NCBI GenBank assembly: GCA_038087875.1
Contig: CM075989.1
Coordinates: 8,682,001-8,746,000 of the forward strand
Length of the DNA stretch: 64,000 bases
Source: Malacoraja senta
Lineage: Eukaryota
Reading direction: 5' to 3'
Position 1 is the first letter of the stretch; each line of letters begins with the position of its first letter. Both the position numbers and the translations under genes were made by a program. Of this stretch, positions 54,377 to 55,105 are shown piece after piece. Below the pieces are notes generated by a model. That model was not told the DNA's origin and ran no database searches. It was given only the letters and a program-made list of their open reading frames with translations.

Positions 54377-55105
54377 TGAGTTTGAGTTTAGTTTAGTTTA
54401 TTGTCGCGTGTACCGAGGTACAGTGAAAAGCTTTTGTTGCGTGCTAACCATTCAGCAGAAAGACAATACATGATTACAATCGAGCCATTTACAGTGTACA
54501 GATACATGATAAGGGAATAGCGTTTAGTGCAAGGTAAAGCCAGTAAGGTCCGATTATAGATACATAGATACATAGAAAATAGGTGCAGGAGTAGGCCATT
54601 CGGCCCTTCAAGCCTGCACCGCCATTCAATATGATCATGGCTGATCATCCAACTCAGTATCCCGTACCTGCCTTCTCTCCATACCCCCTGATCCCTTTAG
54701 CCACAAGGGCCACATCTAACTCCCTCTTAAATATAGCCAATGAACTGGCCTCAACTACCCTCTGTGGCAGAGAGTTCCAGAGATTCACCACTGATAGTCC
54801 AAGGGTCACCGATGAGGTGGATAGGAGTACACCACTGCTCTCTGGTTGTGGTAGGATGGTTCAGTTGCCTGATCACGGCTGGGAAGAAACTGTGTTTAAG
54901 AAGGAACTGCAGATGCTGGAAAATCGAAGGTAGATAAAAGTGCTGGAGAAACTCAGCGGGTGCAGCAGCATCTATGGAGCGAAGGAAATAGGCAACGTTT
55001 CGGGCCGAAACGTTGCCTATTTCCTTCGCTCCATAGATGCTGCTGCACCCGCTGAGTTTCTCCAGCACTTTTGTCTACCTGGGAAGAAACTGTCCCTGAA
55101 TCTGA
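54377..55105 (-). mobile_element. Rex1/Babar-like LINE 3' fragment, interrupted by CR1 and Penelope-terminal insertions
   Basis: Reverse-complement similarity to 34262-34620. Confidence 0.7.
54894..55078. mobile_element. Palindromic (tail-to-tail) Penelope-terminal insertion
   Basis: 76-bp inverted arms 54928-55003 / 55005-55080; 15-bp TSD CTGGGAAGAAACTGT at 54879-54893 / 55079-55093. Confidence 0.88.

What the first reader, a model, noticed from the sequence alone, without database searches (positions are those of the whole stretch)
54879..55093. Near-perfect 153-bp palindrome folded back at the hammerhead stem, inside one 15-bp TSD
Seen: arms 54928-55003 and 55005-55080 are reverse complements with one mismatch and a 1-nt spacer, flanked by TSD CTGGGAAGAAACTGT, which indicates a single insertion event. 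The turning point is GTTTCGG-G-CCGAAAC, a 7-bp inverted repeat already present in the intact unit (59669-59683). Inference: nascent cDNA snapped back on this internal repeat and self-primed second-strand synthesis. That would give a concrete mechanism for the inverted terminal repeats known from Penelope elements. Older imperfect pairs at 295-545, 11165-11305, 29227-29415, 30215-30355 and 62351-62561 also turn at or near the hammerhead-like motif.
Basis: partly seen in the sequence, partly recalled or inferred. Interest (0 to 1): 0.72.

Follow-up and report, generated by a model that had tools for sequence, protein, structure and literature searches.

The report
Head-to-head Penelope retroelement insertion
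This palindrome is a small, young insertion of a Penelope-type jumping gene in the known head-to-head layout; its two outer ends match the family's two usual starting points, which suggests it was copied in from both cut DNA ends rather than by one strand folding back.

Summary
The palindrome and 15-bp duplication are real. It is a 185-bp insertion of the hammerhead-bearing end (pLTR) of a Penelope-like element (PLE) in a cartilaginous fish; PLE endonuclease remnants precede the same unit twice in the window. Both outer ends are ends used across the family: 301-437 and 178-429 contigs with varied flanks per run. This layout, and self-priming at junction palindromes, are already published (PMC3846280, PMC8557442). 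The 7-bp repeat overlaps hammerhead stem II but is not that stem, and 0 of 5 older pairs turn on it. I favour two cDNAs primed from both nicks at the two PLE start sites (PMC11167929) and annealed at the repeat (0.5): 3 of 3 duplication-bounded pairs have one tailed and one tail-less arm, and one cannot be a simple snap-back. Snap-back remains possible for this copy (0.35); a sister copy at 6449 shows DNA-templated fold-back. No laid contig of the best-matching run was shown crossing the centre. Ordinary in kind, useful as a mechanism test.

The parts
54879..54893 (+). Left copy of target-site duplication (CTGGGAAGAAACTGT)
   Evidence: single copy in paralogues of the host repeat, table 7
54894..54927 (-). 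34-bp PLE 'tail', on this arm only; its outer end is standard family end 1
   Evidence: loose ends at 54893 in 301/437/417/427 contigs
54928..55011 (-). Tailed arm: pLTR 3' part from hammerhead stem II downstream; one change (T54935) against the family majority C
   Evidence: table 3, 61
54997..55011 (.). Junction GTTTCGG-G-CCGAAAC: 7-bp inverted repeat across stem II and the GAAAC core; CTGAAGA is lost, so neither strand keeps a hammerhead
55005..55080 (+). Tail-less arm; ends at GTCTAC(CT), standard family end 2
   Evidence: loose ends at 55080/55079 in 290/336/429/178 contigs; solo copies end at the same place
55079..55093 (+). Right copy of the duplication; first 2 bp (CT) also match the element (primer-type microhomology)
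54793..55104 (+). Older interspersed host repeat that the insertion interrupts
   Evidence: paralogue at 34263-34368; read-through contigs
59657..59753 (+). Solo tail-less sister copy with a minimal hammerhead motif (core 59659-59686, predicted cut after GTT) and its own 13-bp duplication (59643-59655 / 59754-59766, 1 mismatch)
30859..31535 (+). Decayed PLE 3' end: GIY-YIG endonuclease remnant (30859-31228), UTR, then the same hammerhead unit (31459-31535)
47862..48310 (+). Second PLE 3' end: endonuclease C-terminus (47862-48005) followed by the unit at 48218
29227..29415 (.). Older inverted pair within a duplication: left arm tail-less, right arm tailed, junction at unit positions 23/9
62351..62560 (.). 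Older inverted pair within a duplication: left arm tail-less but holding unit positions 1-19, right arm tailed and starting near position 20; neither arm is contained in the other
6449..6652 (.). Sister insertion within a 15-bp duplication: tail-less unit followed by an inverted copy of nearby genomic DNA (5706-5807)

Best explanation
One PLE retrotransposition event primed from both target nicks. Shown: PLE origin, staggered cut (13-15-bp duplication), head-to-head layout, and both outer ends matching the family's two standard ends. Inferred: the nick after 54893 primed a cDNA from the tail end of a pLTR RNA copy. The opposite nick primed a second cDNA from the internal, tail-less start site 34 nt upstream, helped by a 2-nt AG/CU match. 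Both ran toward the hammerhead, where this family's cDNAs often stop. Their 3' ends annealed through CCGAAAC/GTTTCGG, and repair filled in. The two templates could be two RNAs or the two pLTR copies of one tandem RNA. The product is a dead, ribozyme-less palindrome.
For: The right arm ends where solo copies end: offsets 80-86 in 7 solo copies, 6 of them with a duplication, and 290/336/429/178 contigs with varied flanks. Solo 52370 shows the same primer-side overlap (AGGT) with the element end. 3 of 3 duplication-bounded inverted pairs in the window have one tailed and one tail-less arm; a random stop hits the 7-nt cluster about 7% of the time (crude). The 62351 pair is non-nested: copying one cDNA cannot give it. 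The 30215 pair looks non-nested too but no duplication was found. A purified PLE protein nicks and extends both strands and starts at two sites separated by the tail (PMC11167929, parts 1-2 of 4).
Against: This copy is nested, with the loop on the tailed arm, as snap-back requires (about 50% under two primers). The junction sits exactly on a tight internal hairpin. The same young subfamily made a DNA-templated fold-back at 6449-6652. The 62351 pair could have lost its centre later by deletion between GAC repeats, and its duplication is only 10 of 11 (score reached by 6 of 300 random pairs). The sample is three pairs with boundaries set by eye. The loose-end consensus at 55080 begins TC(A/G)AT in 3 of 4 runs, so some of those contigs may run on into tail-like letters; X3 and X5 were undercounted by the tool.
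Confidence: 0.5

Rival explanations
1. cDNA snap-back. One cDNA from the tail end stops at CCGAAAC, folds onto GTTTCGG and copies itself. It is then stopped or cut at the tail boundary, for example by bound PLE protein, and joined through the 2-nt CT match.
For: Nested geometry; hairpin feasible; arms carry the same subfamily letters; fold-back onto genomic DNA at 6449-6652 with a 4-nt end match; snap-back is documented for R2 (PMC11371274, passages) and self-annealed inverted duplications for L1 ends (bioRxiv 2024.12.14.628481, passages).
Against: Needs an extra step to stop at standard end 2. Cannot give the non-nested 62351 pair without a later deletion. Other junctions lack this repeat.
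Confidence: 0.35
2. Later DNA rearrangement: a normal insertion was turned into a palindrome by template switching during replication or repair, or a second copy inserted into the first one's junction.
For: Nested insertion occurs in this family (52370 inside an older copy). X5 record 31 (55064-55221, 13 other letters) may mean a relative also has the element end here, which would make the insertion older than it looks.
Against: A single perfect duplication bounds the whole structure and there is no inner one. There is one private change in about 186 bp; at 4% lineage divergence P(<=1) = 0.005. The second arm ends at a standard end.
Confidence: 0.1
3. Assembly or read fold-back artefact.
For: No X1 piece among the 8 shown crosses the centre; no raw DNA reads were available.
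Against: Asymmetric arms, an arm mismatch and a bounding duplication are not what a read fold-back gives. A 92-base contig of another organism (X12 record 15) lies ungapped across the centre with 10 differences. X1 matches both flanks with 0 differences (records 2, 8).
Confidence: 0.05

Closest known systems
Endonuclease-bearing PLE insertions with an inverted 5'-truncated pLTR and a one-sided tail (Pen2a_Av of Adineta vaga, PMC3846280; general scheme in PMC8557442)
   Same: Head-to-head pLTRs inside one duplication, 30-40-bp tail on one end, palindrome at the junction (Pen2a: 15-bp overlap, 31-bp tail, 9-bp duplication; here a 15-bp centre, 34-bp tail, 13-15-bp duplication).
   Different: No ORF between: only the 85-118 bp from the hammerhead to the end is present. 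The host is a cartilaginous fish; my one search listed 3 papers, none on this.
PAc (Poseidon of Anolis carolinensis) in vitro, PMC11167929
   Same: Two genomic ends separated by a tail; a hammerhead about 100 nt upstream; copies cross the predicted cut site, so templates were uncleaved.
   Different: Here the nearest endonuclease homologues carry a CxxxxCxxC motif before GIY-YIG, which points to Neptune/Nematis-type (not tested by a tree). The target is not AT-rich. The parts of the paper that I read give no model for inverted pairs.
Minimal type I hammerheads of metazoan PLEs (PMC4209133)
   Same: CUGAnGA core, unpaired base before stem II, G10.1-C11.1 pair, palindromic 15.2-16.2 with almost no helix III; mostly solo truncated copies.
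   Different: Helix I looks very short here and cleavage was not tested; the palindrome has lost the CUGA half.
R2 cDNA snap-back (PMC11371274) and L1 twin priming / inverted duplication (bioRxiv 2024.12.14.628481)
   Same: Inverted segment at the 5' junction inside a duplication, joined through microhomology.
   Different: Classical twin priming inverts a non-overlapping upstream part of one RNA (recalled); here the same sequence is copied twice and the second arm ends at a fixed site.

Membership tests
Penelope-like element (EN+) | Unit is linked to an ORF with reverse transcriptase and C-terminal GIY-YIG endonuclease | tested here: met
   Remnant 30859-31228 hits 632 proteins at E<=0.001. 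Of 8 scanned, 8 have GIY-YIG and 4 also RVT_1 upstream. The unit follows the endonuclease end at 2 places. The RT part itself is not in the window copies.
Penelope-like element (EN+) | pLTR carries a minimal hammerhead motif | tested here: inconclusive
   Core and stem II seen at 59659-59686; the regex found the core at 8 places, 6 in family copies. Rfam gave no hammerhead hit at E<=1, single-strand folding does not favour it, and cleavage was not tested.
Penelope-like element (EN+) | 30-40-bp optional tail; two genomic 3' ends | tested here: met
   34-bp tail; two end classes in 4 of 4 runs and in window copies.
Penelope-like element (EN+) | Inverted 5'-truncated copy inside one target-site duplication | tested here: met
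Neptune clade | Zn-finger-like linker and RT phylogeny | tested here: inconclusive
   Motif seen in homologues P0121 and P0124; decayed in the window; no tree built.
Non-LTR retrozyme | Tandem units each holding a full hammerhead | tested here: not met
   The insertion is inverted, not tandem, and lacks the CUGA half; definition from bioRxiv 2026.07.22.740005.
MITE / fold-back DNA transposon | Terminal inverted repeats reaching both ends, palindromic unit copied as such | tested here: not met
   Arms are unequal (tail on one side) and other inverted pairs have other junctions; 557-884 contigs per run continue as the non-palindromic unit at 55011.
microRNA precursor | Rfam gathering score | tested here: not met
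   Best 44.1 bits against a cut-off of 73 (MIR1507); generic hairpin match.

The most novel reading that the evidence does not exclude
The inverted repeats of PLEs arise by two-ended priming: a PLE dimer nicks both strands and starts one cDNA at the tail end and the other at the tail-less site. The two templates may be held antiparallel by the hammerhead dimer itself (the AACGUU stem III palindrome), which would explain why junctions cluster at the ribozyme. Cartilaginous-fish genomes, with large numbers of these 100-200-bp insertions, allow a direct genome-only test (tailed/tail-less pairing; nested against non-nested arms). I did not find this model in print, which cover open-licence papers only. 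The hammerhead-dimer step is pure inference.
Probability: 0.35. Interest if true: 0.65.

Novelty: new member of a known kind. Interest (0 to 1): 0.36.

Why it matters
How PLEs make their tandem and inverted structures is called undefined in PMC8557442 (passages). This insertion is a very clean, young, minimal example, and it yields a simple logical test that separates the two models: snap-back requires the tail-less arm to be contained in the tailed arm, while two-ended priming does not. If two-ended priming holds, PLE integration differs from LINE integration in using both nicks as regular primers. The locus itself is probably inert: it lies more than 30 kb past the last ANP32A exon found (21079-21105), and I have no evidence that it is transcribed.

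Tried and rejected
No genome is held for this window, so a true census of palindrome centres could not be run. Pattern scans gave 0 loci in viral contigs, and 7 in metagenomes and 3 in prokaryote genomes; all 10 match only around the 20-mer (longest 42 bp) and were dropped as chance. Rfam: 13 matches at E<=1, none at gathering score, no hammerhead. A word-index protein search with the endonuclease remnant found nothing among 59 candidates, and direct Pfam found nothing; the full HMMER search succeeded. Orthologous site in relatives: X5 record 31 is ambiguous. An empty site needs at least 8-10 mismatches in the first 15 bases where about 7 remain; a filled site conflicts with the insertion's youth. 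X5 record 30 fits neither clearly (11 differences, 13 expected for an intact copy). Joints 55011>54981 in table 5c may be turns at a GAAGG/CCTTC repeat, but their kind is not shown, so they were not counted. The TSD scan found no duplication for 8 of 18 cases, including pairs 11165 and 30215. RNA editing and siRNA were not tested: no RNA run was laid. Earlier-findings look-ups by sequence, place and long word list were empty; one search listed 8 of 225 notes, none on this question. Supplements of the papers were not read; Fig. S1-S2 of PMC11167929 may bear on strand-specific start sites.

Full report
Observation. The arms 54928-55003 and 55005-55080 are reverse complements with one mismatch (T54935) and a G spacer, and the 15-mer CTGGGAAGAAACTGT occurs only at 54879 and 55079. 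The insert between the two copies is 185 bp (54894-55078). It is asymmetric: 34 bp (54894-54927) lie outside the palindrome on the left. The first two bases of the right duplication copy are also the next two bases of the element. The target is an older repeat whose paralogues read through a single copy of the 15-mer (loose ends at 54893 continuing CCCTGAATCTGG in 286, 281, 291 and 283 contigs of the four runs laid; paralogue at 34263-34368). So the duplication was made by this insertion.

What the family is. BLAST with the tailed arm gave 36 hits in the window. At 30859-31228 a decayed reading frame matches 632 proteins at E<=0.001. Of 8 of these scanned, all have a GIY-YIG domain and 4 also a reverse transcriptase upstream. 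The same unit follows this endonuclease end at 31459, and again at 48218 after a second remnant at 47862-48005. The unit holds a minimal hammerhead motif: CTGAAGA, an unpaired A, stem II GGGT-TTCG-GCCC, GAAA, and a palindromic AACGTT in place of helix III. These are the traits listed in PMC4209133 (passages and section 5). Rfam did not detect it and cleavage is untested. An ANP32A gene at 8752-21105 is 95-96% identical over its exon to shark and ray proteins, so the host is a cartilaginous fish; that it is a skate or ray is my recollection of these repeats, not a tool result.

The junction. GTTTCGG/CCGAAAC is the longest inverted repeat in the intact unit, but it is not stem II. It pairs stem II's 5' side and loop with its 3' side plus GAAAC, and it exists only in the young subfamily; older copies read GGGTCTCGACCCGAAAC. 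As DNA it folds with 6 bp and a 3-nt loop at -3.5 to -4.0 kcal/mol. The G spacer means that the tailed arm runs through the loop. Their arms reach unit positions 38/3 (11165), 23/9 (29227), 21/7 (30215) and 1/about 20 (62351), and 295-403 has its own 8-bp duplication. In one search, 10 of the 15 joints shown (652 more hidden) link the left arm to the right arm at unit positions 36-62, with short sides (20-27 letters), so they are only suggestive. Junctions with this locus's own centre are not listed as joints, so their share could not be measured. One contig of another organism (X12 record 15, 92 bases, 10 differences, no gaps) crosses the centre in the same register.

The outer ends. Loose ends with long, varied flanks pile up at 54893 (301, 437, 417, 427 contigs) and at 55080 or 55079 (290, 336, 429, 178), among only 24 rows shown of 2374. 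Both ends of this insertion are therefore standard family ends. In the window, seven solo copies end at the tail-less site (6449, 7046, 14698, 45728, 49075, 52370, 59753), six with a duplication, so that site is used without any inverted partner. The duplication scan gave a score reached by at most 6 of 300 random pairs in 10 of 18 cases; boundaries were set by eye, and the 6449-6650 case was chosen after I saw the repeat. PMC11167929 (parts 1-2 of 4) shows that a purified PLE protein nicks and extends both strands and starts at two sites whose spacing is the tail.

Mechanism. All 3 duplication-bounded inverted pairs (54894, 29227, 62351) have one tailed and one tail-less arm. A copy that could stop anywhere would hit the 7-nt site about 7% of the time (a crude figure). 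Snap-back also requires the tail-less arm to be contained in the tailed arm. That holds for 54894 and 29227 but not for 62351, whose tail-less arm holds positions 1-19 that the tailed arm lacks and begins at GTCTGAAGA, where many solo copies begin. I therefore favour two cDNAs primed from both nicks and annealed at the 7-bp repeat (0.5). Against this: the present copy is nested and centred on a tight hairpin, 62351 could have lost its centre later, and the same young subfamily left a DNA-templated fold-back at 6449-6652. There a tail-less unit is followed by an inverted copy of 5706-5807 (99% over 99 bp), ending in a 4-nt match to a perfect 15-bp duplication. Snap-back with a stop or cut at the tail boundary keeps 0.35. 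Later rearrangement gets 0.1 and artefact 0.05.

Age. There is one private change in about 186 bp and the duplication is perfect. At 4% lineage divergence the chance of at most one change is 0.005. X5 record 31 could mean that a relative about 8% diverged also has the element end at this site; I could not resolve this, as the contig's letters are not shown.

Comparison with what is known. PMC3846280 (passages) describes Pen2a_Av with an inverted pLTR overlapping the direct one by 15 bp, a 31-bp tail on one end and a 9-bp duplication. It reads the frequent palindromes at inverted junctions as self-priming. PMC8557442 (passages) gives the same layout as typical of PLEs and calls its origin undefined. 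cDNA snap-back is documented for R2 (PMC11371274, passages), and self-annealed inverted duplications for L1 ends (bioRxiv 2024.12.14.628481, passages). The two-ended reading was not found in my searches (open-licence library only, supplements not read).

Verdict. A real, young, minimal PLE inverted insertion: a new member of a known kind. Its value is as a clean case for a testable question about PLE integration. Interest 0.36.

Noticed in passing
window 6434-6667: Young tail-less PLE unit (6449-6536) followed by a 17-bp piece (similar to the reverse of 6018-6033) and an inverted copy of genomic 5706-5807, all inside a perfect 15-bp duplication: a PLE insertion that copied host DNA 640-740 bp upstream. 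It lies upstream of the first ANP32A exon found (8752).
   Followed up: partly
window 403, 45823, 49168, 52464, 59657, 62447 against 31459, 32216, 45644, 53017, 48218: Many short copies begin exactly at (G)TCTGAAGA, just after a CAG that follows a pyrimidine-rich tract in longer copies. This may be an intron acceptor (as reported for D. virilis Penelope in PMC4209133) or a strong stop for the reverse transcriptase.
   Followed up: no
window 52310-52662: Cluster of nested family copies; a tail-less copy (52370-52464) sits inside an older copy with a 13-bp duplication.
   Followed up: partly
window 8752-21105: ANP32A exons (8752-8907, 10150-10272, 11503-11700, 21079-21105) on the + strand.
   Followed up: partly
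window 35695-40077: LTR-retrotransposon-like gag and pol frames; integrase precedes RT and RNase H in the 899-aa frame (Pfam).
   Followed up: no
window 43855-45230: LINE-type reverse-transcriptase fragments on the - strand (RVT_1).
   Followed up: no
window 57236-57425: Third PLE endonuclease remnant, on the - strand, next to the long CA microsatellite at about 57600-59300.
   Followed up: no
window 63432-63631: 200-base assembly gap (N).
   Followed up: no
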